From the IMG/VR virus record IMGVR_UViG_3300025061_000003: a stretch of 64,000 bases of DNA. One strand, 5' to 3'. A program made the translations under genes and the position numbers. The notes under the pieces were generated by a model. That model had not been told where the DNA came from, made no database searches, and saw nothing but the letters and a program-made list of their open reading frames with translations. The DNA is from an uncultured virus (IMG/VR IMGVR_UViG_3300025061_000003). Lineage: Duplodnaviria > Heunggongvirae > Uroviricota > Caudoviricetes. Positions 7,401 to 58,027 of this stretch are shown here, in pieces (positions within the stretch are counted from its first letter, which is position 1; every line of letters begins with the position of its first letter).

Positions 7401-7670
7401 ATGATTATTAATTGTATTGATTGCGAATTTCATAGAGTTATAAACGATCCAGATCCTCACGACTCTTTCTGTAGGGATGATCTGGCTGTTGTTTGTACTA
7501 AAATGAAAAATGAAAAACAAGATAATAATTCAATATATGCGGCAGATAGACAAGAATATGCCATTATTACCTGTTCTTGTAGACCTTATAATATCAGAAA
7601 AGAATCTGAAAGACCTAAATCTTGCCCTCTTGATAAAGAAAAAATAAAGGATAAAGTTAATGAATTCTGA
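7401..7670 (+). CDS. Cys-rich small protein with C-terminal VNEF motif
   Basis: CxxC plus further Cys; GGAG SD. Confidence 0.7.
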   Translation: MIINCIDCEFHRVINDPDPHDSFCRDDLAVVCTKMKNEKQDNNSIYAADRQEYAIITCSCRPYNIRKESERPKSCPLDKEKIKDKVNEF

Positions 7671-7866
7671 ACAACTACAAAATTATTTTCAAGCGAGAAT
7701 AAACTTACAACTTGCGTTATTTTTTAAAGCAATTAAAGAAGATAATGAACAAGAAAAAGAAAAAATTAAAGCTGTTATTTATGAATTAAAAGAAATATGT
7801 AAAGATTTAGATATTGAAGTTAATACCAGCATTAGAGGCAGCTTTGATTTAGATATTACTCTTTAA
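7660..7866 (+). CDS. hypothetical protein
   Basis: overlapping ORF with AAGGA SD. Confidence 0.6.
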   Translation: MNSEQLQNYFQARINLQLALFFKAIKEDNEQEKEKIKAVIYELKEICKDLDIEVNTSIRGSFDLDITL

Positions 7867-7936
7867 TATTTTTTATTGATTTTTTCTTATTTTTTTATTA
7901 TAATATTATCATTATTTAATAACAAAGAACCTTTTA

Positions 7937-9190
7937 ATGAATGATATTCAATTTGTTGTATTTTCTTTTAAAAATTTAGAAACTTCAAAAATCCATGCTT
8001 TTTTTAGTTTTTTTTATAATGAAAATAAAAAGAAACATTATATTGCTATTGAAAAATTAACCATTTCAATTAAACCTTCTAGGAAAGAAATTGAAGGTTT
8101 GTATTCACTTATTTCAAAATATACACAAAATCAGACTCAAAAAACCGCTCATATCTTATCTAATTCTTCTATTAAACAAATATTAGATAAACATCCTACT
8201 GAATTTAAATACCAAAATATTTCAGTTGAAAGAAATAAAATTGGATGCATTCATCTTTTAGAAAAATATGATCTTCAAAAAGATCTTGATTATTTCAAAA
8301 AAAATAATCAATTTAATTTATTTTTAAATATTAGTGTTCATTATGAAACTAAAAATAGGAAAAAACAAACCTATTTAAAATTATCTTCTTTTCTTAATAA
8401 AGAAGATTCTATTTCTAATGAAAAAGCTTTTAAAATTGAGAAAAAAGGTATAACTCATACAAAAAATGATGCTCAATTGGTTTTATTTAATTTTGTCAAA
8501 GATCATGTTAATAATCTTAATATTTCTATTAAAAATTTATATATTAATAATAAATATAATGATATGAATCAACATTTTCCGATTAAAAAACATATTAAAC
8601 TAAAACACTTTGAATCAGTTAATAACTTACACTTTATTCAAGATAAATTTAAACGACCTTTAATTCTTCAGGAAGAAATTTTAGAAATGAGACAAAAAAT
8701 GGAATATTTTCTAAAAGAAAAAAGTAATCCTGAAAAATATACCGTTGTATATACAGATGGTAGCTGTAATGATACAAATAGATATTCTTCTGCTTGTTTA
8801 ATTGAAAGTGGTGACGAGAAATTAGAACATTGTTTTACTGATGATATTAAAGCTGGTGTCAAAAACAATAGTAATTATTGTGAACTTGTTGCTATTTATA
8901 GTTCTCTGGATCTAATTATTAAAAATAATCTTTTAGATAAACCTGTTTCTTTTATTGTTGATTCTGATTTTATTTCTATTAATTTGAGATGGTTAAAAGA
9001 AAAAAGATATGATCTTATTGATAAAAAACTTAAAAAATCACAACTTTTTAGAAAAATATATACTATGATTAATAAAAACAATATTAATTACGTTTTAACT
9101 ACTATTAAAAGTCATACTAATAATAAAATGGATTTATATCTAAAAAATAAAATAGTTGATGAAATGGCAAATAAAGCATTAAAACCTTAA
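7937..9190 (+). CDS. protein with C-terminal RNase HI domain and long unknown N-terminus
   Basis: YTDGS, NSNYCELVAI, VDSD, IKSH, NKIVDEMA. Confidence 0.8.
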   Translation: MNDIQFVVFSFKNLETSKIHAFFSFFYNENKKKHYIAIEKLTISIKPSRKEIEGLYSLISKYTQNQTQKTAHILSNSSIKQILDKHPTEFKYQNISVERNKIGCIHLLEKYDLQKDLDYFKKNNQFNLFLNISVHYETKNRKKQTYLKLSSFLNKEDSISNEKAFKIEKKGITHTKNDAQLVLFNFVKDHVNNLNISIKNLYINNKYNDMNQHFPIKKHIKLKHFESVNNLHFIQDKFKRPLILQEEILEMRQKMEYFLKEKSNPEKYTVVYTDGSCNDTNRYSSACLIESGDEKLEHCFTDDIKAGVKNNSNYCELVAIYSSLDLIIKNNLLDKPVSFIVDSDFISINLRWLKEKRYDLIDKKLKKSQLFRKIYTMINKNNINYVLTTIKSHTNNKMDLYLKNKIVDEMANKALKP

Positions 9191-9232
9191 TTTCAGTATT
9201 GACTTTATTTTTTTTTGTAATATAAAATAAAT

Positions 9233-9562
9233 ATCGACAAGAAATAAACTTTAAGTATTGGTAAAGCTGTGAAGCTTAATATTGTTAATGTCAAAAAACA
9301 CTAATACTTTTAAAAGTTTTAAATCTTGAAGAGATTAAGTAGAAATACTTAATAAAAACGAGTACTACCAGATATGGTAAACGAATGAAAAAACGTTAAA
9401 ATGACCTCAACCATTTTGTACACAACAAAAAGTTTAATAGTAATATTAAAGTAATAGAAACGTTAAAATGCAGAAAATTGAAAAATTAGACGCAAAAATC
9501 TTTGAAATTAGTGAAAACTAATAGAGAAGAAAAAGAGAAACCTTGCTTATGCAAGGTTTTCT
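9233..9562 (+). ncRNA. candidate stand-alone structured RNA (~330 nt)
   Basis: TTGACT promoter at 9199, no ORF over 17 aa noticed, several GNRA-capped hairpins, terminator AAACCTTGC-TTAT-GCAAGGTTTT. Confidence 0.55.
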
Positions 9563-9633
9563 TGCTTTAGTAGTTTACTTTTTGTTTATTAATTGATATA
9601 ATTAATTATCTTTTAAATATAGAACTAAATAAA

Positions 9634-11064
9634 ATGAATAAACAAGATTTATTAAAACAAGCCATTATCTCATATGACATTTCAGCAATTCGTGGATTTA
9701 AAAATGATGATGAAGTTGATTTTTCTATTGATTTAGAAGAAGCCATTTCTATTGGTTTATCAAAAAATGCTCACTTAAATTACTTTAAAATGTTTTTTAA
9801 TAAAGAAGAATGCCAATATTATTTTGCAAATAAAAACTTTCATAAAGAACTTATTATTAAAAATAGATTTGATATTTTAGATTTTTTGGCAAGTCGTGTT
9901 GATATTTCTGAGTGTTTGGAATTTTTGGTTGTTGATAATTTTTTAAAAAATTCTTCACATCACTCTTCTTTTAATAGAAAAGATAAAAAACTATTTCGCT
10001 CTGTTATTACTAATTGTCTTTACTATTCAGAAAATAAAAATAATATTGATTTTTATAATTTTATTACTAATTTATATGATAAATTATTGAATGATGTAAA
10101 CGATATTCAAAGATTTATTTTATTTTTTAATAATTATTGCTATTTTTATAAATTTAAAAAAAATTATATCAATCATAATATTGATAAAATATTGAGCATA
10201 ATAAATACACAAAAATATTCGAAAGAAACAATAAAAGATCTTATTAATATTTTAAAAAATAATTTAACTATTGAATACATTAATGAAGACTTAATCAATA
10301 AATATTCAAAAAATAAAATTATTTTTGATTTTTTTCATCATCATTATAATTTATTAATTAGAAGAAAAATTATTCAGATTGAAACCAAAGAATCTTTTGA
10401 AAAAGAAATTGAATTTATTGTTTCTAAAAGCGAACTTGGAGGAAAATTTTATACAGTAACTTTTTCTTACATTTTGGGTTTTATTTGTCAATATGAATCC
10501 AAATATGCCTTAGATTTTATTCTTAATTATTCAAAAGCTAAAATTTCAACAGAAAAATTTTCTAATATTATAAAATCAATTGAAGATAAAGATTTTTTAA
10601 ATTACATACTTAATAAAAATATTGTATGTAATCAATCACTAAAAGAGCATTTTATTGAAACATCTGAAGAAGGTTCTTGGAATCCGTTGATTTTTACAAA
10701 AGAAAGCATATTTATTTATTCTTTCTTAAATGATAAAAATGAATTCACATTTACAGAAAACTTTTCTATTTTGAGAGCGTTAACTCAAAAATCACAAGAA
10801 CACGAATTGTTTAATTTTATTTTCAATCGTATTGTTGAAGAATTAAATGAAAAACAAATTATTGAATTACTTAATCTGTCTTCTTCTTATTTTTATGATG
10901 AAAATTTTAATTTTACTTACCCTGCACTTTATTTTAAATTTATGTTATTTAATAATAAAGTTATTTATAAAATAAAAAATAAAAAATATTATTCATCTAT
11001 TAAATTTCCTAATGAAACTTTTAAAAGAGATTTTTTAAATACCATTAAAGTTTATTCTTTTTAA
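9634..11064 (+). CDS. hypothetical helical-repeat-like protein, C-terminal KVYSF
   Basis: 476 aa ORF. Confidence 0.7.
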   Translation: MNKQDLLKQAIISYDISAIRGFKNDDEVDFSIDLEEAISIGLSKNAHLNYFKMFFNKEECQYYFANKNFHKELIIKNRFDILDFLASRVDISECLEFLVVDNFLKNSSHHSSFNRKDKKLFRSVITNCLYYSENKNNIDFYNFITNLYDKLLNDVNDIQRFILFFNNYCYFYKFKKNYINHNIDKILSIINTQKYSKETIKDLINILKNNLTIEYINEDLINKYSKNKIIFDFFHHHYNLLIRRKIIQIETKESFEKEIEFIVSKSELGGKFYTVTFSYILGFICQYESKYALDFILNYSKAKISTEKFSNIIKSIEDKDFLNYILNKNIVCNQSLKEHFIETSEEGSWNPLIFTKESIFIYSFLNDKNEFTFTENFSILRALTQKSQEHELFNFIFNRIVEELNEKQIIELLNLSSSYFYDENFNFTYPALYFKFMLFNNKVIYKIKNKKYYSSIKFPNETFKRDFLNTIKVYSF

Positions 11065-18870: not shown

Positions 18871-20256
18871 ATGCAAACAATCAAACACCTTTTACAACCT
18901 GAATTTGTCGGTAAAACTGTTACTGTTCAAGGTTGGGTTAAAACAAATCGTAAGCAACAAACAATGTGTTTTATTACTCTTTCCGATGGTTCTACTTTAT
19001 CAGGTGTACAAGTTGTTGTTAATAATACTATTTCTAATTTTGAAGAAGTTGAAAAATTAACGGCTGGTTGTTCTATTGCTGTTTCTGGAGAACTTATCGA
19101 ATCACCAGCAAAAGGTCAAGACTTTGAAATTGTTCCACATTCTCTTATTGTTTTAGGTTGGGTTCATAACCCTGAATCTTATCCTATGCCAATGAAACGT
19201 CATTCACAGGAACATTTACGTGATAATGCACATTTACGTGTCCGTAGTAACATCGGAGGAGCAGTAGCTCGTGTTCGCTCTGCTGTTTCTACATCTATTC
19301 GACAATTTTTTGAAAAAGAAGAATTTCATTGGGTGGCAACTCCACTTATTACCGCTTCTGATTGTGAGGGTGCAGGTGAAATGTTTAAAGTGACTACACT
19401 TGATCTTCAAAATGTTCCATTAACTGATAAAGGTGAAGTTGATTATTCACAAGACTTCTTTGGTAAACAAACTGGATTAACAGTTTCTGGTCAGTTAAAT
19501 GCTGAAACTTATGCTTGTGGTATGTCAAAAGTTTATACTTTCGGACCTACTTTTCGGGCGGAAAATTCAAACACAAGCCGACACCTTTCAGAATTTTGGA
19601 TGGTAGAACCAGAAGTTGCTTTTTATGATATGAAAGATGCGATTTCTCTTTCTGAAAGAATGCTTAAATATGTTATTTCTGACGTACTTGTTAAGTGTCA
19701 GGAAGATATGGCTTTCTTTAACAGTTTTGTTGAAAAAGGTACAATTGATAAATTAACTAAATTTATTGAAAGTGACTTTATTACTGTTGATTATACTGAT
19801 GCTATTGATATTCTACTTCAATCAGGAGTAACTTTTGAAGAAACACCTTATTGGGGCATTGATCTTGGCTCAGAACATGAACGCTATTTGGCTGAAAAAC
19901 ACTTTAATTCACCTATTGCATTAGTTAACTATCCGAAAGAAATTAAATCTTTCTATATGCGTGATAATGACGATGGTAAAACTGTGGCGGCTTTTGATAT
20001 TCTTGCTCCACAAATTGGTGAAATTATTGGGGGTTCTCAACGTGAAGAACGCTATGAAACTCTTGTTCAAAAAATGGAAGAGAAAGGATTAGACCTTAAA
20101 GATTATGAATGGTATTTAGATCTTCGCAAATACGGAACAGTAGTACATTCAGGTTATGGACTTGGTTTAGAACGTCTTATTTCTTATATTACTGGTGTTT
20201 CTAATGTAAGAGATGTTATTCCTTTTCCAAGAACACCTAAAAATGTGAAATTCTAA
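18871..20256 (+). CDS. asnS: asparagine--tRNA ligase
   Basis: OB-fold N-terminus, [51 protein letters not shown]. Confidence 0.97.
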
Positions 20257-21581: not shown

Positions 21582-22160
21582 ATGTCTCTAAATATTTTTA
21601 ACTTTTCTTTTGTAAAAGAAAAAATTCGTGAAAGAGAATTAAAAAAACTTCAACTTAACGAAGAAAATAAAAAATTACGTAGAGAAGAAAATTTAAAACG
21701 TTATTTTATTATTAAATCAATCAAAGAAAAATGGAAAAACAAAGACTATAAAGTTGTTAATGAAGCCTTCCATCATTATTCATTTAATATTGATAATATA
21801 GAACATGTATATGGAATTTCTGGTATTGTTGATTTTATTGATCTTAATTTACATTCAGAAGAAGAATTTTATCGGCTTCTTTGTCTTGATAATTTAGATT
21901 CGAAAGAATTAAAAGATTTAGGTGTTTCTATATATTTCACATCAGAAGGTTTATTTCTTGAATTAAAACATAATGATAAATTCTCTAATATAAATCAACT
22001 TTGGCTACATATTTATAAAGAATCTTTGAAAGAATGTTCTTTATATATTGCTTTTTACAATGCAATGAAATTATTTTCACCAGCACAATTTGATAAATTG
22101 AATAATACTGAAAGTTTTATTCATTATAGTAAAATAAATAAATCCATGAATAATTTTTAA
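21582..22160 (+). CDS. hypothetical protein, C-terminal SMNNF
   Basis: AGGT SD. Confidence 0.7.
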   Translation: MSLNIFNFSFVKEKIRERELKKLQLNEENKKLRREENLKRYFIIKSIKEKWKNKDYKVVNEAFHHYSFNIDNIEHVYGISGIVDFIDLNLHSEEEFYRLLCLDNLDSKELKDLGVSIYFTSEGLFLELKHNDKFSNINQLWLHIYKESLKECSLYIAFYNAMKLFSPAQFDKLNNTESFIHYSKINKSMNNF

Positions 22161-40557: not shown

Positions 40558-41628
40558 ATGACAGATATTTTACAATTAACAGAGAAACAACAAAAAATTA
40601 TTAATTCTGAATTTCAACAGCCAAAAACAAAAATTTTTGAAAAGTTGAAACCTCAATTTTTAAGTAAAATTAAAGATGCTATTCAATTTATTGATAAAAC
40701 AAAAGATGACAATATAGAAGATTACATTGTTTATTTTGATAATCGACTTTTTGTTATTAATATTAAAACAGAAAAAGAAGGCGAAAAAGAAATAATCAGC
40801 AATTCTCATGCGATTGAAGATATTTCAGTATTTGATGCTTTGTTTACTGATGAGCGTAAATATGTTGCACACTCAAAAGAAGTTGCTGAACTCTACATTT
40901 CTCAACGTGGGTGTTTTAATGATGGTAGTATTGAAATTTTTGATGTTGAAAGTGAAATTGAAAATGCAAAACACAATGGTTTATTTAATGACGATAAAAC
41001 CATTAAGCAACAATACCGATTTAAAATGAATACACCACATCAAGCTATTATTGATATTGTGACAAATCTACTATCTCAGGTAGAAAAAGAGTATGATAGC
41101 TATATTGAACAAATTGAAAAAGAAAATTCTATGGAAGAAAATGATGACATTTTTGTTTATGATGACATTATCTTTTATCAAGCAGTTGGTGAATTAGACG
41201 AAGAAGAAAGTAATACACCTAAATTACTAAAAACTCTATCAATGGAAGAAGATACTAAATATTCTGAATTCTCTTTTGATAATAATCTTTCTCTTGATGA
41301 TAGTGACTCAATTAATTTCCCTTTCTATACAGATAAAGAAGCATTTTCTGAATTAGTAAATGAAAATGTTCATATCAATAGAATGCTTAATTATTTTAAA
41401 GACTTTTATGGTCTTAAAGATTTTTATATTATCGCTAAAAGCAAAGATGAAGAAGATTATATTTTTTATACAGTAACTAATAAAGATGAAATTGAATTTT
41501 TTGTGTTAATTACACGTAATGATTTTAATAAAATTCAAATTGAACGACTTAGTGTAAAAAATAATTATATTAATCGAGAACGATTTAAAAAGTCTATTTC
41601 ATTTAAACGAGCAATTAATGATTTTTAA
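40558..41628 (+). CDS. acidic hypothetical protein, C-terminal AINDF
   Basis: 356 aa ORF. Confidence 0.7.
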   Translation: MTDILQLTEKQQKIINSEFQQPKTKIFEKLKPQFLSKIKDAIQFIDKTKDDNIEDYIVYFDNRLFVINIKTEKEGEKEIISNSHAIEDISVFDALFTDERKYVAHSKEVAELYISQRGCFNDGSIEIFDVESEIENAKHNGLFNDDKTIKQQYRFKMNTPHQAIIDIVTNLLSQVEKEYDSYIEQIEKENSMEENDDIFVYDDIIFYQAVGELDEEESNTPKLLKTLSMEEDTKYSEFSFDNNLSLDDSDSINFPFYTDKEAFSELVNENVHINRMLNYFKDFYGLKDFYIIAKSKDEEDYIFYTVTNKDEIEFFVLITRNDFNKIQIERLSVKNNYINRERFKKSISFKRAINDF

Positions 41629-44763: not shown

Positions 44764-45147
44764 ATGATTGCTCAAATCATGACTAATATTAGTGGAGGAT
44801 CTTTTTCAAGTTTTAATAAAACAACACTACAAGAAGAAAGAGAACTTGTTCATAATGCAGTTCTCTCTTCTCTTGAATATATCGAATATGTTTATAAAAA
44901 AAATATTGAAATTGTTGATTTCAAATCTCATTCTATTAAATTTAATATAAAAAATAATAAAAGAATAAAATCTTTTTTTTCTAAAAATATAACTTCTCAA
45001 TATATTTATGAAGATTTAAGAAAATTTATTAAAAATAGCAGAAGATTTAAAAACAACATTTTAATTTCAATTAAAGACAATGAAATATTTTTTAAATATG
45101 AAGAAAGTGATAAAGTTAACCTTTCTAATAAACTTTCTGACTTTTAA
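44764..45147 (+). CDS. hypothetical protein, tandem family member 1 (KLSDF)
   Basis: similar to the next two ORFs. Confidence 0.7.
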   Translation: MIAQIMTNISGGSFSSFNKTTLQEERELVHNAVLSSLEYIEYVYKKNIEIVDFKSHSIKFNIKNNKRIKSFFSKNITSQYIYEDLRKFIKNSRRFKNNILISIKDNEIFFKYEESDKVNLSNKLSDF

Positions 45148-45158: not shown

Positions 45159-45563
45159 ATGAATCTTAATCAACACTTTTTAAGGCAATCTATTAATATT
45201 TTGGAACTTTCAAATTTTGTTGAAAATTGCCCTATTCGTAAAGAAAAAAATAAAAAAGAAATAAAAAATGCAGAAAATCAACTAACAATTATTGATTTTA
45301 TTGAATTTTTTAAAAAAAATAATGAAAAAAAATTTATTGTAAAAACAATAGATTATAATAAAATTTCCATAAAACATAAAAACTCAATTTTAAACTTTCT
45401 TTTTAATAAATATATAACTAAAAAAATTAAAAACACTATTCAAATGTTAATTAATAATAATTATAAAGATAAAATTATAATGTTTAATGAACAAGATACT
45501 TTTTGGTTTATTTCAGGTGATGAACAAAAAATTTCAATTTTAAATAAAATAAATGAATTTTGA
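45159..45563 (+). CDS. hypothetical protein, tandem family member 2 (KINEF)
   Basis: shared DTFWF...EQKI C-terminal region. Confidence 0.7.
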   Translation: MNLNQHFLRQSINILELSNFVENCPIRKEKNKKEIKNAENQLTIIDFIEFFKKNNEKKFIVKTIDYNKISIKHKNSILNFLFNKYITKKIKNTIQMLINNNYKDKIIMFNEQDTFWFISGDEQKISILNKINEF

Positions 45564-45601: not shown

Positions 45602-45949
45602 GTGATAAACATGGAATACGATAGCTATTTTAATAATTTTAATATTAATTATCTTATCAATAAAGAAATTATATTACATATCAGGCTATCCATACAACAA
45701 TTAAAATCTAAATATGCAAGTGCTGTAATATTTAAAGAGTCTACTGATACTTCTATTACTATTGATATTAACAATTCCTTTTTTAATCGCTTTTTTTATA
45801 AACTTAATAACAAAAAAATATTGCTATTTTTAAAAGAAGTTAATTCTATTAATGAAAATATTTTTATTTCTAATAAAGATAACACTTTTTATTTCAAACA
45901 TATTGGAAATGAAAAAGCAAAAATAGTTAAAAATATAGATAATTTTTGA
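45602..45949 (+). CDS. hypothetical protein, tandem family member 3 (NIDNF)
   Basis: shared DNTFYF...EKAKI region. Confidence 0.7.
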   Translation: MINMEYDSYFNNFNINYLINKEIILHIRLSIQQLKSKYASAVIFKESTDTSITIDINNSFFNRFFYKLNNKKILLFLKEVNSINENIFISNKDNTFYFKHIGNEKAKIVKNIDNF

Positions 45950-47025: not shown

Positions 47026-47511
47026 ATGTTATCACCTTTACAATCTCTAAAACTAACACTACCTGATTTACTTTCTTCTCTTGGTGATTTAAATCTTCCT
47101 TTTGAAAACTCTTTTGACATTGAAGACTTTGAAGTTAATCGTGATATTGGTCTTATTTCTTTTACAGGAGAAAAAGTATTAGTTAATACTTCTGAATTTT
47201 TTAAACTTCAAAAAGAAGAACAACTTTCTGCATTAGCTTTTATTAGTTTTTGTAAAGAAAACTATTCAGAATTTAAAGAAATCTCTAACTCAACTAACAT
47301 CGATCATCAAGTGCTTAATTTTGCAAGCCATTTCTATGCAATGAAACAACTAAATGATATTGGAATTGTTTTTGAACCTTCTTCTATCAACCTTATTAAT
47401 CTTAAAGAAGATGTAACTGTTTCTGATTCTTTAACTGACACTTATAATAAGTTTTTAGGACTTGGACTAGATAACGTTATTTCAAAATATGAATTATATA
47501 CTACCGATTAA
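47026..47511 (+). CDS. hypothetical protein, possibly a degenerate DUF2201-N-like peptidase fold
   Basis: FTGEKVLVNTSEFFKLQKEEQLSAL resembles the region before HEXXH, but the HEXXH is absent. Confidence 0.45.
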   Translation: MLSPLQSLKLTLPDLLSSLGDLNLPFENSFDIEDFEVNRDIGLISFTGEKVLVNTSEFFKLQKEEQLSALAFISFCKENYSEFKEISNSTNIDHQVLNFASHFYAMKQLNDIGIVFEPSSINLINLKEDVTVSDSLTDTYNKFLGLGLDNVISKYELYTTD

Positions 47512-47938
47512 TTTTGATAACAACGACTATATCTTATCAAGATTTAATAGAATAGATCTAACTGCATTGGATGTCTCAATGCAGTTAACTTTAAATTCAG
47601 AAATACAACACTCTACATGGCATTGTATGAGTAAATTATTTAGTGTTAAAGAATATAATTTGTATTTACAAGGCTTTTTTGAATTTGAAGATAATAATGG
47701 AAAATTATATTCATTAGTGGAAATTTTAAAACACTGTAATATTGAAGATATTTATAATATATTTTTAAATTTTAATAATACAACAAACTATCAATTAACT
47801 TCAAGTGCAAAGTTTTATATTAAATCTAACGATATGACTAAAATTGTTGCTATTGATACTATTAAACCAAAACCACTTGATACTATGTCTAAATATTTAG
47901 AAGATATTTTAATTTTTAAAAATACTCTTTCTTTTTAA
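47489..47938 (+). CDS. hypothetical protein, C-terminal NTLSF
   Basis: overlapping ORF. Confidence 0.6.
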   Translation: MNYILPINFDNNDYILSRFNRIDLTALDVSMQLTLNSEIQHSTWHCMSKLFSVKEYNLYLQGFFEFEDNNGKLYSLVEILKHCNIEDIYNIFLNFNNTTNYQLTSSAKFYIKSNDMTKIVAIDTIKPKPLDTMSKYLEDILIFKNTLSF

Positions 47939-49122: not shown

Positions 49123-49368
49123 ATGGCTTTTGAAATTTCAAATGAAGACATTTTAAATGTTGTAGAACGAGTTTTTAAAATTAAAATTTCTTTTGAATTA
49201 GCTGATAAAATTAAAAATGAATTTCTTGATTTAAGGAAAGTTAATAAAATGGCTTTTTATGGACAGATTTTAGAACAACAAGAAATATTTGCTTATGATG
49301 AACTTCATAAGCAAATAGAAGACAATAAAAGCAAGATTTCTTTAATACTTAATATTAATAATTTTTAG
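49123..49368 (+). CDS. hypothetical protein, C-terminal NINNF
   Basis: AGGT SD. Confidence 0.7.
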   Translation: MAFEISNEDILNVVERVFKIKISFELADKIKNEFLDLRKVNKMAFYGQILEQQEIFAYDELHKQIEDNKSKISLILNINNF

Positions 49369-50830: not shown

Positions 50831-51631
50831 ATGTCAATTACTATTAATACACTTGAAAAAGCTAAAAAAATTACAAAATCTCTTTTTGATTACTCAAAAA
50901 ATAATAAAACAACTTTATCTGGTTTTCGTTCTTTATTTTCGCGGGAATGTGGCTTTAATGAACTTCAAGACGCATTTCAAAAAGAAAATGAAAGAAAACG
51001 TGAATTTGTTTTAAGTCAATATATTTCATATCTTGATGATCCTCGCGTTACAATCGAAGTAGCCAGAGAAATTGGTGAAGATTATGACAAAGCAAAATCA
51101 TATTTTGAAGAACATTTCCAAAATCACGATGGCATTATGTTTCCCGTTTTAAATGCCTCAATGCTATATAATCGTTGTCAAGAAATTCTAACACTTTTTG
51201 GAGAACTTGAATGGTTTAATACAACAAGCGCTTTCAAAGCCCTAACAAAGATGTCTTTTGAAAAATCTCGTATTCGCTATGTCAGTGAAGATATCGGAAA
51301 CTACGGAAATCCAGAACTTATTGTGGCAATTGAAACTATGGAATTGTTTTTCAGAAATGGCTCTGATGGTTTTGAGCAGTTTGTTCAATATAATCACGAA
51401 GAAGACTGGACTCCAGAGGACGGTTTTTATAATCTTTATAAAAAAGTTAAGCTTTTAACTCGTGGATTTATTTTTAGCCAATGCAATGTAGGTCAGGGAA
51501 TAAATGATTCAGTTCATAGTAAAAATAAAGAAATTCGAGAAAATATTAGAAATAAAAAATTAAAAGCAGAAGAACTTAAAGAAAAAAATCTTAAAGTTTT
51601 CTATCGTGGCACTTGGTTTTCGGGATTTTAA
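50831..51631 (+). CDS. hypothetical protein with Glyoxalase_8-like N-terminal helical domain
   Basis: TLEKAKKITKSL...LFSRECGFNEL pattern. Confidence 0.5.
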   Translation: MSITINTLEKAKKITKSLFDYSKNNKTTLSGFRSLFSRECGFNELQDAFQKENERKREFVLSQYISYLDDPRVTIEVAREIGEDYDKAKSYFEEHFQNHDGIMFPVLNASMLYNRCQEILTLFGELEWFNTTSAFKALTKMSFEKSRIRYVSEDIGNYGNPELIVAIETMELFFRNGSDGFEQFVQYNHEEDWTPEDGFYNLYKKVKLLTRGFIFSQCNVGQGINDSVHSKNKEIRENIRNKKLKAEELKEKNLKVFYRGTWFSGF

Positions 51632-52423: not shown

Positions 52424-53047
52424 ATGAGAAATTTAAGAAATTTATTTAGTAAAGAGAATATAAAAAACTCTATTAAGCAAACTCGAATTCAAGCTATTTT
52501 ATTTAATGTATTAATATTTCCATTAATATATTTTTTGCCACCTGAATATTTAGGACTTTCTATTGCTTCTCTTGGTTATCCAAGTGGGTTGTTTTTAAAT
52601 ACTTTTATTCATGCTGGAATATTGCATATCGCTATGAATATGTTAGTTACTTATCAATTTGGTGAGCTAATCGATGAACTTTATCAAAAGAAAGAACAAT
52701 ACCTTCTTTATTTTGCATTAGGCATTCCCATCACAGCTATTATGTATCTATATATTTATACATTACAACCAGAAATCTTATTAGTAGGTTATTCAGGAAT
52801 TGCTATGGGATTAGTTGGTGCTTGCTTTAGATTTTTTCCTAAACCTGCTAAAAAGTCTATTGCATTACAGCTTATCATCTTCCATGTCATTATTATTGCT
52901 TTTGAATTATCTGTTTCTTGGGAAGCGCATTTAACAGGATTTGTTTTTGGGATGCTTTACTCTTACAATAGATTTTTATATAAGCAACCTCAAAATCTAC
53001 CTGATGATTATGACGGTGAAGATAATCGTTCTATTGCTAATTTTTAA
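52424..53047 (+). CDS. rhomboid intramembrane serine protease, C-terminal SIANF
   Basis: FIHAGILHIAMN, GYSG, WEAHLTG; multiple TMs. Confidence 0.9.
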   Translation: MRNLRNLFSKENIKNSIKQTRIQAILFNVLIFPLIYFLPPEYLGLSIASLGYPSGLFLNTFIHAGILHIAMNMLVTYQFGELIDELYQKKEQYLLYFALGIPITAIMYLYIYTLQPEILLVGYSGIAMGLVGACFRFFPKPAKKSIALQLIIFHVIIIAFELSVSWEAHLTGFVFGMLYSYNRFLYKQPQNLPDDYDGEDNRSIANF

Positions 53048-53057
53048 GAGTGTTTAA

Positions 53058-53900
53058 ATGAAAATACAAACACCTATGCAGACGTTAAGAGATCATTTGA
53101 AAAATTTTGATCTCTTAACTAAGCAATTTAATCTTACAAGAAAACGCTTTCAACATAGAAAGTCTAAATCTGCTATGTATCCTCATAAAGACAAAAAGGC
53201 TATTCACTCTGACTTTTTAATGGTTTTTTATCATGATACACTTGGTAAAGAAGATTCTTTTGGTTTTAAATTTACTTATTTGGATACAAAGAAAAAAGAA
53301 GTTATTAAAGAACAATATTTTGAAATTAATTTTAAAATTAATGGAGAAATATATAATTCAAAACTTTTTTCAATTCAAGAAGCTAAATCTGTTCTTAAAT
53401 TTATTAATAATTCAATAAAAGAAAATCATTTTGATAAAATCTCTTTCTTTGAATTTTTAAAAACAAATTTTATGATTTCAGATAAAGAGTTGATTAATAA
53501 TTATGAATTATTTGAGGCTGAATTTAATAAAGAGTCTAAACATTTGCAAAAAGAACTTATATTTCAAGAAGCCAATTCCAATACCTTATTTAAACTAATT
53601 AGAACAAAAGAAGTTGAGTTGTACGAGTTTGTTAACGAACTTGAAGAAACAAAACGAATTGAAATATTGGAATTAAAAATTAAACAACTAAGAATGCAAG
53701 TAAATCAGAAAAAATTAGATAAATACAATGAATTAGAAATAAAAAAATATAAAGATTTATTAGAACACTCAAAATCCAAAATTGATATTGTCATTGAAGA
53801 CATTAATCGTTTAATTATGAAAATTAATAAAAAATTTAATATTAAATCTTCCATTGTTAATAAATTTAAAAATAAATTTTCCCAAAATGATGAATTTTAA
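53058..53900 (+). CDS. coiled-coil hypothetical protein
   Basis: 280 aa ORF. Confidence 0.65.
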   Translation: MKIQTPMQTLRDHLKNFDLLTKQFNLTRKRFQHRKSKSAMYPHKDKKAIHSDFLMVFYHDTLGKEDSFGFKFTYLDTKKKEVIKEQYFEINFKINGEIYNSKLFSIQEAKSVLKFINNSIKENHFDKISFFEFLKTNFMISDKELINNYELFEAEFNKESKHLQKELIFQEANSNTLFKLIRTKEVELYEFVNELEETKRIEILELKIKQLRMQVNQKKLDKYNELEIKKYKDLLEHSKSKIDIVIEDINRLIMKINKKFNIKSSIVNKFKNKFSQNDEF

Positions 53901-54452: not shown

Positions 54453-54471
54453 AGCCTTCTTATTAATCACT

Positions 54472-54891: not shown

Positions 54892-55037
54892 TTTAATTAC
54901 CTTTTTTATTTTAATTTAATCATTATATATTAAATACTCTTTATTTTCAATTATTTTGTTTCAATTTTAAATCCAACTTGATATTTAATCTATATTGTTT
55001 TATAATATTCACTTCTTTTGGCAACTTTATACTTAAT

Positions 55038-55520
55038 ATGATTAAAAGTAAATTTAAAACAAATACAGAGTCAAGAAGTTTTTATTTGAAAAATAAAGAC
55101 ATATTGCTGAATACAAAAGACTTTGTTAATCATTCAGTGTTTTATATAGAAAAACACTATTTTCAACATTTTATTGAATCAAATTCTTTTGTAAAATTTT
55201 TATTTTATAATTTTTTGGAAAAATTTATTAGAGAAGAATTTAAAGATTCTTTATTAAAATTAAAATCAAAATCTTGGCTTTATGTTTTTGATTTTAGAGA
55301 TAATACTTTTATAATAAAAGATAAACAATTTATTTCTTTTGTTGATGATAAAGAGTTAAATGAAGAATTTAAGAAAGAATTTACTTTTTTATTTTTTGTA
55401 TGGTTTATTGAAAATAATCATAAATTTAACATTAAAAGTCAAATGCATTCATCTGCTGTAAAAGCTATATTAAGTAAAAAAGATAAAATATTAATTAAAT
55501 CAAGAATGAGAGATTTTTAA
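55038..55520 (+). CDS. hypothetical protein, C-terminal RMRDF
   Basis: probable ATG 55038. Confidence 0.65.
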   Translation: MIKSKFKTNTESRSFYLKNKDILLNTKDFVNHSVFYIEKHYFQHFIESNSFVKFLFYNFLEKFIREEFKDSLLKLKSKSWLYVFDFRDNTFIIKDKQFISFVDDKELNEEFKKEFTFLFFVWFIENNHKFNIKSQMHSSAVKAILSKKDKILIKSRMRDF

Positions 55521-56065
55521 TGAAAATTAAAGAAAGACAAAATCAAGAAGAAAAATTTAAAAATTATTTAATTTCTTCTCTAAACTTTGTAACAAAAGAT
55601 AGCGATTTATATACAGAAATTAAATTAAAAATTAAACAATCTAATTCAAATACTTTTTTTTCTGACTATCATTCTAATTTTAATAAACTTTTTTCGACAA
55701 ACAAAGAATTTGTTAAACTTGTTATAGATAATAAAATTGTAGAACATTCTTATTATTATAATGATTTAACTACATTAATTTCTTATTATTTTAAAGATGC
55801 TGATATTGATAAAATTGTTTTTTTTGCTGAACTTTATTATATCCATAAAGAACTAAATCAGGTAGAATTTATTATTTCTAATAATTTAACCAATCTTTAT
55901 AAAAGAAAACATCATAGGTTAACTTATTTTCTTTTGAATGCTTCAATAATGAGAATTTTTTGCATAAGAAAAGAACTTACTTTAAAAAATATTATAAAGA
56001 AAACACCCAAACTTGGTAGCATTTATAAACGAATTAATGTTATTAATAATATAGACTCTTTTTAA
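55520..56065 (+). CDS. hypothetical protein, C-terminal NIDSF
   Basis: TAATG coupling. Confidence 0.7.
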   Translation: MKIKERQNQEEKFKNYLISSLNFVTKDSDLYTEIKLKIKQSNSNTFFSDYHSNFNKLFSTNKEFVKLVIDNKIVEHSYYYNDLTTLISYYFKDADIDKIVFFAELYYIHKELNQVEFIISNNLTNLYKRKHHRLTYFLLNASIMRIFCIRKELTLKNIIKKTPKLGSIYKRINVINNIDSF

Positions 56066-56107
56066 TTTTTTTGTTATAATACTACTTTTAATAACAGGAA
56101 AAATAAT

Positions 56108-56410
56108 ATGTCTTCTAAATATTACTGTTTAAAATGCCAAGCACCTAATAGCGGCTGTAAATGTGGTAATACTGATTATCATTTCTCTTATTCTTATAAA
56201 TTAAGAGTGCCTACTTCCATTAAGAATAAAGTTTTATTTAGAAAATTTTTAGATGATTGCCCTATTTTTGTTAACTGTGTGCCTGAAGAATTAAAACCTG
56301 CTTTTAGAGATTTATTAAGAAAAGTTAAGTATTTTGATAAATCTATCAATGGTAGAACTTCTGTTATTGTTAGAAAAAATGAAAAAATGGAAACAGACAT
56401 TTTTAAATAA
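56108..56410 (+). CDS. small zinc-ribbon-like protein
   Basis: CLKC...CKCG. Confidence 0.65.
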   Translation: MSSKYYCLKCQAPNSGCKCGNTDYHFSYSYKLRVPTSIKNKVLFRKFLDDCPIFVNCVPEELKPAFRDLLRKVKYFDKSINGRTSVIVRKNEKMETDIFK

Positions 56411-56476
56411 TTTTATTTGCTTTCCAACTTTTTTATTGTTATAATAAACCTATCTTAATTAATCAGGTAAAAAACT

Positions 56477-56827
56477 ATGAATGGACGTATTGATATTCAA
56501 ATTCCAAAAAATATCACTCCTTTTTTAGACGCTGCATTTACTTTTGTAGCATTACAATCAACCATTAATTCAAAATATTCTTCTGGATTTGATAAGTTTG
56601 AATTTAAAAAACGTTTTTCTTCTTCTATTCAAGATAGCGTTGATTTTAAATTTCAAGCGAATGAAGATGAATTAAGACTTATCTTTGATTTAACACGCTC
56701 TCTTATGAACAATCCACAATTTATGACAGCAAAAGAGCGTCAAGATAACAATTTAACTGACTTTTCTGATTATATTGATAAGCAAGTTAAACATTACAAA
56801 ACTCTTTATATTAGCTCACATTTTTAA
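56477..56827 (+). CDS. hypothetical protein
   Basis: promoter and AGGT SD. Confidence 0.7.
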   Translation: MNGRIDIQIPKNITPFLDAAFTFVALQSTINSKYSSGFDKFEFKKRFSSSIQDSVDFKFQANEDELRLIFDLTRSLMNNPQFMTAKERQDNNLTDFSDYIDKQVKHYKTLYISSHF

Positions 56828-56866
56828 TGTGAGTTAATTTATTATTAAATTTCTGGAGAATTTTAA

Positions 56867-57382
56867 ATGAATAAAAATTTTAAAGTCGGTTTGTTTGGTA
56901 CTTGTGGTAGTTCAACTTGGCGTAAAGACTTTATTGAAACATATAAAGAACTTGGTATTGATTATTTTAATCCACAATTAGGTGAGGGCGAATGGACTCC
57001 TGAATGTGCGGATATTGAAAATCAACATTTTAAAACTGATGAAATTATTTTATTCCCTGTTACTAATGAAACTACTGGTCTTGGATCATTAGCAGAAGTT
57101 GGATTCTCTATTGCTGAAACCCTAAGAAATCTAAATGAACGTTATTTAGTAGTTTATATAGATCCTGATTGTATTGATTCAAAAGCTGATGCCAATGAAA
57201 TTAAAACTTCAATAAGAACACGTAAATTAGTATCTTCAAAAGTTGAACTTGAAGCTGATATTAATGAAAAAGTATTTGTCGTTAATTCATTAGAAGAAAT
57301 GAAGTCTCTTTCAATTGAAATTGCTAAATATATTAAAGAAGATTCTTTCTCTAAAACACAAGAATTTTTTAAGGTTGGTTAA
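56867..57382 (+). CDS. nucleoside 2-deoxyribosyltransferase-like protein
   Basis: LFGTCGSSTWR, YFNPQ..W, SLAEVG. Confidence 0.7.
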   Translation: MNKNFKVGLFGTCGSSTWRKDFIETYKELGIDYFNPQLGEGEWTPECADIENQHFKTDEIILFPVTNETTGLGSLAEVGFSIAETLRNLNERYLVVYIDPDCIDSKADANEIKTSIRTRKLVSSKVELEADINEKVFVVNSLEEMKSLSIEIAKYIKEDSFSKTQEFFKVG

Positions 57383-58027
57383 ATGATTTATAAACTTAAT
57401 TCATTAGAAAAAGATTCAGTTTTAAATCTTTTTGACTTTGATTATGATGAATTTTTCTTTTATGAAAACATTGAAAGAGAAGATTTCATTAAAGCTTTAT
57501 GTTATTTTTTATCTTTTTTTTCAAATCAAAAAAGTATAGAAAATATTCAATCAGCCTATTATTCAATACAAAATTCATTTGGTTCTGGTGAAGAAGAACA
57601 GTTTTTTAAGAATTTTATTTTTATTAATAAAATTTTAATAGATAAATATAATTTTTCATTTCTTCGAATTATTTTAAAAGATTTAGATACAATATCAAAA
57701 TTTGAAGTAGACAGAGAAGAATACATTATTTATACCTGTGAAGAATGCAATGGTAAGGGCGAAGTTTTTTGTAATGAAGAACAAAACTCTATGCATATTT
57801 GTATGGAATGTGGTGGTTCTGGTAATGTTGAATTGTATAATCCAAATTATGATATGTTATCTAATAGAGATATTGATAAAATAAAACATATTGAATTTAA
57901 TTTTAAAAAGAACATTAAAAATATTATCAATACTGTTGTGCAAATAATTTTAGAAGAAGAATTACATCCTGATATTGGTGAAGTTTATAAACCTTATAAA
58001 ACCATAAATAATGTAAAAAACTTTTGA
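57383..58027 (+). CDS. protein with DnaJ-type zinc-finger pair, C-terminal NVKNF
   Basis: CEECNGKG and CMECGGSG. Confidence 0.7.
   Translation: MIYKLNSLEKDSVLNLFDFDYDEFFFYENIEREDFIKALCYFLSFFSNQKSIENIQSAYYSIQNSFGSGEEEQFFKNFIFINKILIDKYNFSFLRIILKDLDTISKFEVDREEYIIYTCEECNGKGEVFCNEEQNSMHICMECGGSGNVELYNPNYDMLSNRDIDKIKHIEFNFKKNIKNIINTVVQIILEEELHPDIGEVYKPYKTINNVKNF

What the first reader, a model, noticed from the sequence alone, without database searches (positions are those of the whole stretch)
7401..58027. About 20 mostly unrelated proteins share a C-terminal hydrophobic-x-x-Phe-COOH motif: candidate sorting or recognition signal
Seen: 20 ORFs end with a hydrophobic residue at -4 and Phe at -1: 7401 KIKDKVNEF, 9634 TIKVYSF, 21582 INKSMNNF, 28276 IKKLNKF, 29973 IAKNMTTF, 32765 VNKVCNF, 35905 IQNKINNF, 36355 LKNKINDF, 38669(-) VKDIVNKF, 40558 FKRAINDF, 41703 QQYSIDKF, 44764 LSNKLSDF, 45159 ILNKINEF, 45602 IVKNIDNF, 49123 LILNINNF, 49376 LQESFENF, 52424 RSIANF, 55038 IKSRMRDF, 55520 VINNIDSF, 57383 INNVKNF. 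Three looser cases: 36905 KINSDF, 47489 NTLSF, 53058 NDEF. Most also have a hydrophobic residue at -8 or -7, K/N/S at -5 and N/D/E/K/S at -2, consistent with a short amphipathic helix. Carriers differ in size (81-731 aa) and fold: ankyrin-like, membrane, YubB-like, DnaJ-zinc, rhomboid. Both Phe codons, all three stop codons and both strands are used, arguing for protein-level selection rather than a DNA motif. The soluble conserved enzymes (ligases, KptA, dGTPase, exonuclease) and signal-peptide proteins lack it. Inference: an element-encoded factor reads this tail. Possible roles are packaging of proteins into virions for injection, a secretion or translocation signal, import into a phage compartment, or a C-degron or adaptor site. 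The reader is not identifiable in this window.
Basis: partly seen in the sequence, partly recalled or inferred. Interest (0 to 1): 0.9.

Follow-up and report, generated by a model that had tools for sequence, protein, structure and literature searches.

The report
Shared Phe-ended tails on phage proteins
About 25 unrelated proteins of an uncultured, very AT-rich marine phage all stop right after the same short peptide ending in phenylalanine, most likely a shared tag read inside the host cell by one still unknown partner.

Summary
In my set of 88 ORFs of 60 aa or more, 27 end in Phe. Shuffling each protein gives 6.5 (maximum 17 in 5,000 shuffles). 19 end in [ILVMF]-polar-polar-F, against 0.76 expected. 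Four control regions from other phages, two of them equally AT-rich, show 2/70, 8/84, 3/85 and 5/101 Phe ends.

After dropping AsnRS (its terminal Phe is a family trait) and one doubtful ORF, 25 carriers remain. 22 of them lie among the 42 genes at 28-58 kb.

The signal acts on the protein:
- TTT:TTC use matches internal Phe codons, and all three stop codons occur.
- The DNA downstream of the stop differs from gene to gene.
- No carrier pair is related once the last 12 residues are removed (0 of 351 pairs).
- Relatives at 49-97% identity keep Phe and the hydrophobic -4 residue while -2 and -3 drift.
- An Api92-like homolog from outside the clade lacks the tail.

Carriers include four polytopic membrane proteins whose tails face the cytoplasm. 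None of nine exported or anchored proteins carries the tail. This argues against packaging, secretion or import.

My best guess, untested, is a common C-terminal tag, perhaps a degron like the FtsH tag of lambda CII (RSEQIQMEF).

Earlier notes of this scan report Phe-tipped tails in other phages, on other DNA. I did not check those notes.

The parts
7389..7670 (+). carrier, 93 aa, ends KIKDKVNEF
   Evidence: strict motif V-N-E-F; Phe codon TTC, stop TGA
9634..11064 (+). carrier, 476 aa, ends TIKVYSF
   Evidence: V at -4, but Y at -3 falls outside the strict motif
21582..22160 (+). carrier, 192 aa, ends INKSMNNF
   Evidence: strict motif
28237..28794 (+). carrier, 185 aa, ends IKKLNKF
   Evidence: strict motif
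29973..32168 (+). carrier, 731 aa, acidic, ends IAKNMTTF
   Evidence: strict motif; weak ankyrin hints only
32765..34033 (+). carrier, 422 aa, ankyrin-like, ends VNKVCNF
   Evidence: Ank_2 E 1.1e-5, below Pfam's cut-off
35905..36345 (+). carrier, 146 aa, two TM segments then an 86-aa cytoplasmic domain, ends IQNKINNF
36355..36858 (+). carrier, 167 aa, two TM segments then a 110-aa cytoplasmic domain, ends LKNKINDF
36905..37639 (+). looser carrier, 244 aa, four TM segments, ends QKINSDF
   Evidence: the hydrophobic residue sits at -5, not -4
38669..39346 (-). carrier, Api92-like (DUF1281_C), ends VKDIVNKF; the real start is probably at residue 19 of the ORF
   Evidence: clade relatives end IVNKF, IVESF and ALEEF; the outsider P0023 lacks the tail
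40558..41628 (+). carrier, 356 aa, acidic, ends FKRAINDF
   Evidence: identical tail in L001
41703..42272 (+). carrier, 189 aa, ends QQYSIDKF
   Evidence: the L001 ortholog (75% identity) ends KQYNINNF
44764..45147 (+). carrier, 127 aa, ends LSNKLSDF; first of three weak tandem paralogs
45159..45563 (+). carrier, 134 aa, ends ILNKINEF; second of the three paralogs
45602..45949 (+). carrier, 115 aa, ends IVKNIDNF; third of the three paralogs
   Evidence: a TTGACT -35-like hexamer overlaps its TTT TGA
47489..47938 (+). looser carrier, 149 aa, ends FKNTLSF
   Evidence: the L001 ortholog ends NTLAF
49123..49368 (+). carrier, 81 aa, ends LILNINNF
   Evidence: three synonymous changes in the last 12 codons against L001
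49376..50602 (+). carrier, 408 aa, ends LQESFENF
   Evidence: six family members (58-100% identity) end SFENF (two), SFNDF, SVKDF, SFDNF and SIDDF
50831..51631 (+). weak carrier, 266 aa, ends GTWFSGF
52424..53047 (+). carrier, rhomboid protease, 207 aa, ends NRSIANF after a roughly 26-aa cytoplasmic tail
   Evidence: 7 of 8 family sequences end SI[AKS][ND]F, and the eighth is a diverged fragment
53058..53900 (+). looser carrier, 280 aa, ends FSQNDEF
54978..55520 (+). carrier, 180 aa, ends IKSRMRDF
55520..56065 (+). carrier, 181 aa, ends VINNIDSF
56477..56827 (+). weak carrier, 116 aa, ends LYISSHF
57383..58027 (+). carrier, 214 aa, CxxCxGxG zinc-finger-like, ends INNVKNF
   Evidence: DnaJ_CXXCXGXG E 3e-4, below Pfam's cut-off
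18871..20256 (+). not a carrier: AsnRS that ends in F by family descent

Best explanation
The tail is a short linear peptide selected at the protein level. It reads roughly [IL]-x-[NK]-[KN]-[IVLM]-[NDS]-[NDEKS]-Phe-COOH. It sits at the extreme, cytoplasm-facing C-terminus of about 25 otherwise unrelated proteins. Most of these are ORFans, and they are concentrated in a 30-kb block of accessory genes of an uncultured marine phage with 24% GC.

Every one of these reading frames stops exactly after the Phe.

The partner I think most likely is an AAA+ protease or its adaptor. The best fit is the membrane-bound FtsH, which degrades both soluble and membrane proteins. On this reading the tail is a shared C-degron that gives these accessory proteins a common short lifetime, as the C-terminal tail of lambda CII (ending ...QIQMEF) does.

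Shown: the enrichment, its protein-level nature, its conservation within the clade, its absence from an outsider homolog, and the cytoplasmic orientation of the tails.

Inferred: that a single reader exists, that it is a protease, and that the outcome is turnover.

The confidence of 0.35 is for the full statement including the degron. For the weaker claim, a protein-level tag read by a common cytoplasmic partner of any kind, I would say about 0.7.
For: - Enrichment and controls: as given in the observation check.
- Protein level, codon use: terminal TTT:TTC is 23:4 against 1199:134 for internal Phe codons, not significantly different.
- Protein level, context: all three stop codons occur, and the downstream DNA differs. 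Eight of 26 + strand carriers are followed by the next gene within 15 nt and 18 by longer spacers.
- Protein level, substitutions: position -4 varies among I, V, M, L and F, and -2 and -3 vary among N, D, E, K and S.
- No paralogy: BLASTP finds no carrier pair at E < 0.01. phmmer on proteins without their last 12 residues finds 0 of 351 carrier pairs at E < 1.
- Conservation: all 6 members of the 49376 family, 7 of 8 rhomboids and all 4 clade Api92-like proteins (49-100% identity) keep F and a hydrophobic -4 while -2 and -3 change.
- Outsider: Api92-like homolog P0023 (29% identity) lacks the tail. Matches to cultured phages stop at residue 196 of 225.
- Cytoplasmic orientation: the membrane carriers 35905, 36355, 36905 and 52424 have an even number of TM segments and K/R-rich N-termini.
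- Exported proteins: none of 9 exported or N-terminally anchored proteins, classified by eye, carries the tail. Chance of that at the window rate is 0.037.
- Clustering: 22 of 42 genes at 28-58.1 kb are F-enders, against 4 of 41 at 1-28 kb (Fisher p = 3.6e-5).
- Precedent, FtsH range: FtsH degrades cytoplasmic and membrane proteins (PMC8138137, passages read).
- Precedent, lambda CII: the FtsH degron of lambda CII is listed as the C-terminal RSEQIQMEF (PMC8138137, table passage). Its C-terminal 16 residues are described as necessary and sufficient for rapid FtsH degradation (PMC5869508, introduction passage, citing Kobiler 2002, which I did not read).
Against: - No reader was identified, and no binding or stability data exist.
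- The lambda CII tail has its hydrophobic residues at -3 and -5, not -4. It is a single protein, not a proteome-wide tag.
- No degron ending in Phe is listed for ClpXP or Lon in the passages I read.
- Why a phage would destabilise half the genes of a block is unexplained.
- A docking tag for a hub that is not a protease fits the same data.
- Both structure models were unusable (mean pLDDT 43.8 and 38.7), so exposure of the tail is not shown.
- The host is unknown, and the rest of the phage genome could not be reached.
Confidence: 0.35

Rival explanations
1. The tail is a docking handle for a hub that is not a protease. This could be a phage or host scaffold, chaperone, TPR- or PDZ-like carboxylate clamp, or replication or transcription factor. 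It would gather the carriers at one place or onto one machine, as the Phe-tipped tails of T7 gp2.5 and gp4 or the SSB C-terminus do.
For: This rival shares all the protein-level, conservation and topology evidence of the best explanation. A frame that stops exactly after Phe suits a pocket that binds the carboxylate plus the aromatic ring. That comparison is from my own knowledge of SSB-Ct and PDZ recognition.
Against: - The tails are rich in K and N, not acidic. In the last 12 residues K is 18.2%, N 13.3%, D 5.9% and E 3.7%, and net charge is mostly +1 to +3.
- There is never a Pro at -2, so they are not SSB-Ct or T7-like tails.
- Residue -2 is polar in 26 of 27, which does not fit the bacterial clamp motif QL[SD]LF.
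- No TPR or PDZ protein was found in the window at Pfam E up to 0.3 for the 29 proteins tested.
Confidence: 0.25
2. The tail is a sorting signal. It would direct proteins into the virion, out through a secretion or injection system, or into a phage-built compartment.
For: The tag is modular, sits on many unrelated proteins and is clustered in one block. C-terminal cargo-loading peptides of encapsulins are a conceptual precedent (my own knowledge).
Against: Four carriers are polytopic inner-membrane proteins with cytoplasmic tails, including a six-pass rhomboid. Such proteins cannot be passengers of a capsid, a secretion channel or a proteinaceous shell. No portal, secretion or shell genes lie in the window.
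Confidence: 0.08
3. The shared ending reflects hidden common ancestry or a convergent structural cap. On this view the tail is the last helix of a fast-evolving domain, or the last residue each fold needs, with everything after it trimmed away in a streamlined AT-rich genome. It would not be a signal.
For: - Genes 44764, 45159 and 45602 are weak tandem paralogs (17-25% identity).
- Several carriers show an aromatic strand-like stretch 15-30 residues before the end (by eye).
- ORFan families in large phages diverge fast (general knowledge).
Against: - 0 of 351 carrier pairs are related once the tail is removed.
- Carriers range from 81 to 731 aa and include rhomboid, Api92-like and zinc-finger proteins. 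In these the tail lies beyond the Pfam domain: Rhomboid matches residues 55-181 of 207, and DUF1281_C matches 107-162 of 225.
- The outsider homolog lacks the tail.
- Trimming back to the last needed residue would favour I and L, which are commoner than F. Yet only 3 ORFs end in I and 5 in L, against 27 in F.
Confidence: 0.1
4. The pattern is a nucleic-acid or translation signal. Candidates are a promoter or UP element, a recombination cassette like the PeSL of T4-type phages, an RNase site, a slippery TTT-T stop, or a termination context. The peptide would then be a by-product.
For: - In one case a strong -35-like TTGACT hexamer is built from the TTT TGA of gene 45602.
- Every TTT followed by a stop codon gives TTTT, which could in principle slip by +1 (my own reasoning).
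- The codons of N, K and I are AT-rich, so the tails look alike as DNA too.
Against: - TTC is used 4 of 27 times, about the internal rate.
- Three different stop codons are used, and no sequence is shared after the stop.
- Eight carriers run straight into the next gene's ribosome site, while 18 are followed by longer spacers.
- Open frames in the +1 and -1 frames after the stop are no longer than for non-carriers (median 8 vs 8 and 6 vs 10 codons).
- The substitutions are conservative at the amino-acid level: I/V/M/L at -4.
- sigma-70-like sites are not enriched over shuffles (135 vs 154.7).
- Two equally AT-rich phage regions lack the pattern.
Confidence: 0.04
5. The tail is a weak membrane-binding amphipathic helix, like the C-terminal targeting helices of MinD or FtsA. 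It would bring the carriers to the inner membrane.
For: The tails are K-rich with hydrophobic residues spaced 3-4 apart, at -1, -4 and -8. E. coli FtsA ends in ...KEF (recalled from memory, not checked).
Against: - The helical hydrophobic moment of the tails equals that of non-carrier C-termini (0.354 vs 0.351).
- Membrane helices do not need to stop exactly at Phe.
- Integral membrane proteins carry the tail too.
Confidence: 0.06

Closest known systems
C-terminal FtsH degradation tag of phage lambda CII (listed as RSEQIQMEF; Kobiler et al. 2002, as cited in PMC8138137 and PMC5869508)
   Same: Both are phage-encoded proteins. Both signals sit at the extreme C-terminus, end in an acidic or polar residue followed by Phe-COOH, and mix polar residues with two aliphatic ones. 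FtsH handles both soluble and membrane substrates, which matches the mixed set of carriers here.
   Different: - Lambda uses the tag on one regulator. Here about 25 unrelated proteins carry it, over half the genes of a 30-kb block.
- The hydrophobic residues are at -3 and -5 in CII but at -4 and -8 here.
- No degradation has been measured here.
- The host and its proteases are unknown.
Acidic Phe-tipped tails of T7 gp2.5 and gp4, and the bacterial SSB C-terminus (D-D-D-I-P-F); recalled, with search listings seen
   Same: Several different proteins share a C-terminal Phe as a docking handle for one partner.
   Different: - Those tails are strongly acidic, and SSB has Pro at -2. Here the tails are K/N-rich with no Pro at -2.
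- Those systems involve two to a few replication proteins. Here the carriers are dozens of ORFans and membrane proteins.
Sliding-clamp binding tails: bacterial QL[SD]LF, PIP box Qxx[ILM]xx[FY][FY], and the C-terminal epitopes of T4/RB69 gp43, gp33 and gp55 (recalled)
   Same: These are short C-terminal hydrophobic or aromatic motifs shared by unrelated proteins. Four carriers read Q at -7 and three of them [IF] at -4, ending in F, with PIP-like spacing.
   Different: - Residue -2 is polar in 26 of 27.
- Q at -7 occurs in only 4 of 27.
- Membrane proteins and ORFans are unlikely clients of a clamp.
- No clamp gene lies in the window.
Outer-membrane protein beta-signal (C-terminal Phe read by BamA/Omp85; PMC1634882, search listing only)
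   Same: A terminal Phe on many unrelated proteins is read by one machine.
   Different: - The beta-signal alternates hydrophobic residues at -1, -3, -5 and -7 and sits on exported beta-barrels.
- Here -3 is N, D or S in 17 of 25.
- The carriers lack signal peptides, and exported proteins lack the tail.
Phe-tipped tail sets noted earlier in this scan on other phages (e1-5709687, e1-5360799, e1-5860825, e1-7843184)
   Same: Many unrelated small phage proteins share a C-terminal ending built around Phe.
   Different: The motif flavours differ (x-F-x, [DE]-F, F-[IVLM]) and the genomes are different. Those are unchecked AI notes, and I did not re-examine their DNA.

Membership tests
lambda CII-type C-terminal FtsH degron | The signal lies at the extreme C-terminus of a phage protein, on the cytoplasmic side | tested here: met
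   All 25 tails end the ORF. The tails of the membrane carriers are cytoplasmic by TM count and the positive-inside rule.
lambda CII-type C-terminal FtsH degron | The tail is necessary and sufficient for rapid FtsH-dependent degradation | not testable with these tools
   This needs half-life assays of tagged reporters in ftsH+ and ftsH- cells.
lambda CII-type C-terminal FtsH degron | Sequence resembles RSEQIQMEF (polar residues, aliphatic residues, then E-F-COOH) | tested here: inconclusive
   D or E at -2 in 8 of 25 carriers, and at -2 or -3 in 12 of 25. The hydrophobic register differs: -4 here, -3 and -5 in CII.
SSB-Ct / T7 gp2.5-gp4 acidic Phe tails | An acidic run before the terminal Phe, with Pro at -2 in SSB | tested here: not met
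   In the last 12 residues K is 18.2%, N 13.3%, D 5.9% and E 3.7%. Net charge is mostly positive. No Pro at -2.
Sliding-clamp binding motif (QL[SD]LF / PIP box) | Gln at the start, and hydrophobic residues at the last two motif positions | tested here: not met
   Q at -7 in 4 of 27. Residue -2 is polar in 26 of 27.
OMP beta-signal | Alternating hydrophobic residues on an exported beta-barrel with a signal peptide | tested here: not met
   Residue -3 is N, D or S in 17 of 25. None of 9 exported or anchored proteins carries the tail.
PeSL-like recombination cassette / promoter overlap (a DNA-level cause) | DNA conservation that runs across the stop codon into a shared downstream element | tested here: not met
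   Downstream sequences differ and three stop codons are used. Eight of 26 carriers abut the next gene and 18 do not. Only one -35 overlap was seen.
Capsid, encapsulin or secretion cargo tag | Carriers are soluble passengers that can be enclosed or translocated | tested here: not met
   Four carriers are polytopic membrane proteins, including a rhomboid (Pfam E 7.7e-20).

The most novel reading that the evidence does not exclude
An abundant, uncultured marine phage lineage uses a proteome-scale C-terminal address tag, [IVLM]-x-x-Phe-COOH. The tag sits on more than half of the genes in a 30-kb accessory block, on soluble and inner-membrane proteins alike. A dedicated receptor that has not been described, phage or host, would read it. 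With it the phage could sort, time or jointly control a whole class of host-takeover proteins. Together with the differently flavoured Phe tails noted elsewhere in this scan, this would point to a general, unrecognised organising principle of large-phage proteomes.
Probability: 0.25. Interest if true: 0.85.

Novelty: new variant of a known kind. Interest (0 to 1): 0.68.

Why it matters
Large phages carry hundreds of ORFans with no functional handle. A tag shared by 25 of them groups these proteins into one regulated class and gives a simple way in: fuse the last 12-16 residues to a reporter and look for the partner.

If the tag is a degron, it would show that a phage programmes the lifetimes of a whole set of accessory proteins through one peptide. 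That goes well beyond the single-protein case of lambda CII.

If the tag is an address or a docking signal, the receptor is a new hub of infection biology.

The phage is also relevant in nature. Near-identical DNA is held by marine and seawater metagenome runs: 15 rows hold half or more of the sampled words. Six of the 20 holder rows are RNA libraries, and the 20 rows span 14 studies.

Tried and rejected
**Whole genome.** None is held for this window, so the genome-wide count and the search for a reader elsewhere in the phage could not be done.

**Relatives.**
- There is no near match among 50,697 phage records.
- Four scans of viral contigs and two of genome contigs found no relative.
- One scan of metagenome contigs found a single close, syntenic locus, L001. 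It differs too little from the window for a synonymous versus non-synonymous test: 5 synonymous and 7 non-synonymous changes in 180 tail codons.

**Profile search.** A profile of the three weak paralogs against 1.84 billion representative proteins found only three clusters, apparently their own.

**Structure prediction.** The rhomboid (8-row alignment) and the 49376 family (6-row alignment) gave mean pLDDT 43.8 and 38.7. These are too poor to say whether the tail is exposed. No fold search was run.

**Amphipathic helix.** The hydrophobic moment of the tails does not differ from that of non-carrier C-termini.

**Frameshift or read-through.** There is no extended frame after the stop and no tRNA gene in the window.

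**Promoter scan.** sigma-70-like sites are not enriched over shuffles.

**Candidate readers in the window.** Pfam at E up to 0.3 on 29 unexplained proteins (17 non-carriers and 12 carriers) gave no PDZ or TPR match; the only ankyrin hints were on two carriers. The only protease-like leads are two SprT-like HExxH proteins. I did not run a complex prediction on them, because nothing but proximity links them to the tails.

**Literature.** Two full-text searches found no description of a phage-wide Phe-ended tail. They cover only the held library.

**Laid contigs.** Contigs from RNA libraries cover the stretch (X15 in 29 of 30 bins, X16 in 30 of 30). Contigs cannot prove transcription, and the joints listed at min_likeness 85 have short sides of 20-25 letters, so I give them no weight.

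**Small ORFs.** Three of 21 intergenic ORFs of 25-59 aa end in F. None shows the motif, and I did not count them.

Full report
**What the window is.** The 64-kb window has 24% GC. Its genes are densely packed and lie almost all on the + strand. It shows GGAG-type ribosome sites, TATAAT-type -10 boxes and hairpin terminators.

Pfam and PHROGs recognise a set of phage accessory enzymes:
- two T4 Rnl1-like RNA ligases
- a polynucleotide kinase/phosphatase
- KptA
- an AsnRS
- HD and CYTH domain proteins
- RNase H
- an RNase T-like exonuclease
- a NIF phosphatase
- a metallophosphoesterase
- a TnpB-like transposase

They also recognise exported proteins: a lipoprotein, DUF3718, DsbA and DUF1439. 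About half the ORFs match nothing. No structural genes are present.

No cultured phage is close. The best protein matches are around 35-42% identical. The same DNA, nearly identical, is held by many marine and seawater metagenome runs. 15 rows hold half or more of the sampled words, and the 20 holder rows span 14 studies. I read the window as part of a large uncultured marine phage of a Gram-negative host. That host reading is an inference from the lipobox, DsbA and DUF1439.

**Checking the observation.** I built one non-overlapping set of 88 ORFs of 60 aa or more. 27 end in Phe, although Phe is 7.2% of all residues (p = 6e-11).

Three nulls agree:
- Shuffling each protein gives 6.45 +/- 2.4 Phe ends, with a maximum of 17 in 5,000 shuffles.
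- TTY precedes 11.1% of the 10,292 stop triplets that are not gene stops (p = 6e-7).
- The same pipeline on four other phage regions, two of them equally AT-rich, gives 2/70, 8/84, 3/85 and 5/101.

The ending is more than a single Phe. [ILVMF] stands at -4 in 21 of 27, against 32.6% before internal Phe (p = 2e-6). Residue -2 is polar in 26 of 27. The four-residue motif [ILVMF]-polar-polar-F ends 19 ORFs, against 0.92% per internal position (p = 9e-21). The shuffle mean is 0.76 and the maximum 5.

I removed two of the 27. The AsnRS was removed because its closest solved relative also ends ...PKNAEF. ORF 60094 was removed because it is a dubious frame just downstream of the TnpB-like gene. The remaining 25 of 86 still give p = 1e-9.

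**Protein or DNA?** The terminal Phe codon is TTT 23 times and TTC 4 times, the same ratio as inside genes (1199:134). Stops are TAA 17, TGA 5 and TAG 5.

Nothing is shared after the stop. Eight carriers run into the next gene's ribosome site within 15 nt, and 18 are followed by longer spacers, some with promoter-like sites. Only one carrier, 45602, has a strong -35-like hexamer built from its TTT TGA.

The residue at -4 changes among I, V, M, L and F, and -3 and -2 among N, D, S, E and K. These are changes that conserve chemistry, not bases. The +1 and -1 frames after the stop are no more open than in non-carriers, and the window has no tRNA genes. I conclude that selection acts on the peptide.

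**Are the carriers relatives?**
- BLASTP finds no carrier pair at E < 0.01.
- phmmer on proteins cut by 12 residues finds 0 of 351 carrier pairs at E < 1. It does recover four non-carrier paralog pairs.
- Only 44764, 45159 and 45602 align weakly, at 17-25% identity. Their profile found just three clusters among 1.84 billion representatives, apparently their own.
- Carriers range from 81 to 731 aa. They include a rhomboid (Pfam E 7.7e-20), an Api92-like protein (1.2e-10), an ankyrin-like protein and a CxxCxGxG protein. The last two are below Pfam's cut-offs.

**Conservation and modularity.** Three families could be followed into related phages.
- 49376 family: six proteins at 58-100% identity end SFENF (two of them), SFNDF, SVKDF, SFDNF and SIDDF.
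- Rhomboids: seven of eight, at 61-100% identity, end SIANF, SISNF or SIKDF. The eighth is a diverged fragment.
- Api92-like: the four clade proteins, at 49-100% identity, end IVNKF (two), IVESF and ALEEF. P0023, a 29% identical member of the same Pfam family from outside the clade, stops differently and lacks the last roughly 25 residues. Matches to cultured phages end at residue 196 of 225.

So Phe and the hydrophobic -4 are held while -2 and -3 drift, and the tail behaves as an add-on. The syntenic locus L001 keeps every tail. It is too close for a rate test.

**Who carries the tail, and where does it point?** 22 of the 42 genes at 28-58.1 kb are F-enders, against 4 of 41 at 1-28 kb (Fisher p = 3.6e-5). 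Five of 27 F-enders have a Pfam hit, against 25 of 61 others (p = 0.05).

None of nine proteins with a signal peptide, lipobox or N-terminal anchor carries the tail. I classified these by eye. The chance of that at the window rate is 0.037.

Four carriers are integral membrane proteins:
- 35905 and 36355, with two TM segments each
- 36905, with four
- the rhomboid, with five segments over my threshold plus a sixth seen by eye

All four have K/R-rich N-termini and long K/R-rich C-terminal parts, so their tails face the cytoplasm. The rhomboid tail follows the last TM segment by about 26 residues that include Pro, Gly and acidic residues. That looks like a flexible linker, but both structure predictions were too poor to confirm it. 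The tails are not more amphipathic than other C-termini.

**Mechanism.**
- What is shown: a clade-specific peptide, selected at the protein level, at the free cytoplasmic C-terminus of many unrelated proteins.
- What I infer: one cytoplasmic reader grips the carboxylate, the Phe and the -4 side chain.

Polytopic membrane carriers make capsid packaging, secretion or import into a compartment unlikely. The tails are not acidic and have no Pro at -2, so they do not mimic SSB or T7 tails. Residue -2 is polar, so they do not fit bacterial clamp motifs. The register and the lack of signal peptides exclude the outer-membrane beta-signal.

The reading that fits all constraints best is a shared C-degron for an AAA+ protease that handles both soluble and membrane substrates. 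FtsH does so, and the one well-known phage example, lambda CII, carries a C-terminal FtsH tag listed as RSEQIQMEF (PMC8138137, table and text passages read). [quoted passage not shown]

I give the degron reading about 0.35. A docking handle for a partner that is not a protease gets 0.25, and the remaining rivals get less. No reader was found in the window. The only protease-like non-carriers are two SprT-like HExxH proteins inside the carrier block. Nothing beyond position links them to the tails.

**Novelty.** C-terminal docking tails and degrons are known kinds, but I know of none carried by dozens of unrelated proteins of one phage. Two full-text searches of the held library found no such description. 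Supplements were not consulted.

Earlier notes of this scan report Phe-centred endings on many small proteins of other phages, with other motif flavours. I did not check those notes. If they hold, this is one instance of a wider pattern.

**Limits.**
- The host is unknown.
- The rest of the genome is out of reach.
- No usable structure models were obtained.
- There is no experimental evidence.
- Expression is only hinted at by contigs in RNA libraries.

Noticed in passing
window 39438-40496 (+) and 46006-46956 (+): Two proteins without the tail, lying inside the carrier block, have HExxH motifs (HEIAH at residue 109, HELAH at residue 135). Both show weak SprT-like signals: Pfam E 0.11 and 0.046, and Atlas feature hits to viral SprT-like clusters at 0.89-0.91. 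They are possible phage metalloproteases.
   Followed up: partly
window 23579-24739, 34588-35886, 43599-44759, 32228-32761, 11710-12009, 4003-4635: The window holds an unusually full RNA-repair or RNA-end-processing set: two Rnl1-like ligases (35% identical paralogs), PNK phosphatase, KptA/Tpt1, a cyclic-phosphate-processing receiver domain (cREC_REC, E 1e-29) and a CYTH protein.
   Followed up: no
window 18871-20256: The phage encodes an asparaginyl-tRNA synthetase (E 5e-150 to PDB 6pqh_A).
   Followed up: partly
window 58514-59776 (+) and 692-1513 (-): There is a TnpB-like gene (phrog_506 E 1e-36; Cas12f1-like TNB domain) and a second, weaker transposase-like ORF. ORF 60094-60363, just downstream of the first, looks non-coding and may lie over the element's RNA.
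   Followed up: no
window 51606-51941 and 51944-52357: Two adjacent small basic proteins end in Cys-rich acidic tails (...NSCNSKED, ...GGSCGSCSDD). This is a different shared ending inside the carrier block.
   Followed up: no
window 60722-63928 (-): A 1,068-aa, very acidic protein (net charge -98) with a weak BspA-type LRR hit lies on the opposite strand. It converges on a G+C-rich inverted repeat shared with the upstream + strand gene.
   Followed up: no
window 45946-45974: The best promoter-like site in the region (TTGACT, 17 nt, TATAAT, with TG before the -10 box) uses the TTT TGA end of gene 45602 as part of its -35 hexamer.
   Followed up: yes
L005 (MT446416.1 20001-70000) and L003 (LR756500.1 60001-110000): The control regions have their own last-residue skews: Leu ends 19 of 101 ORFs in L005, and Leu 12 plus Ile 11 of 84 in L003. 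Other large phages may also have biased C-termini.
   Followed up: no
window 15467-15778, 15818-16144, 53937-54452: This is a small paralog family of non-carriers (phmmer E 4.6e-16 and 2e-4).
   Followed up: no
window 40001-58100: Near-identical contigs occur in marine metatranscriptome libraries (X15: 27 of 29 laid contigs at 99% identity or more). More diverged variants occur in another RNA library (X16).
   Followed up: partly
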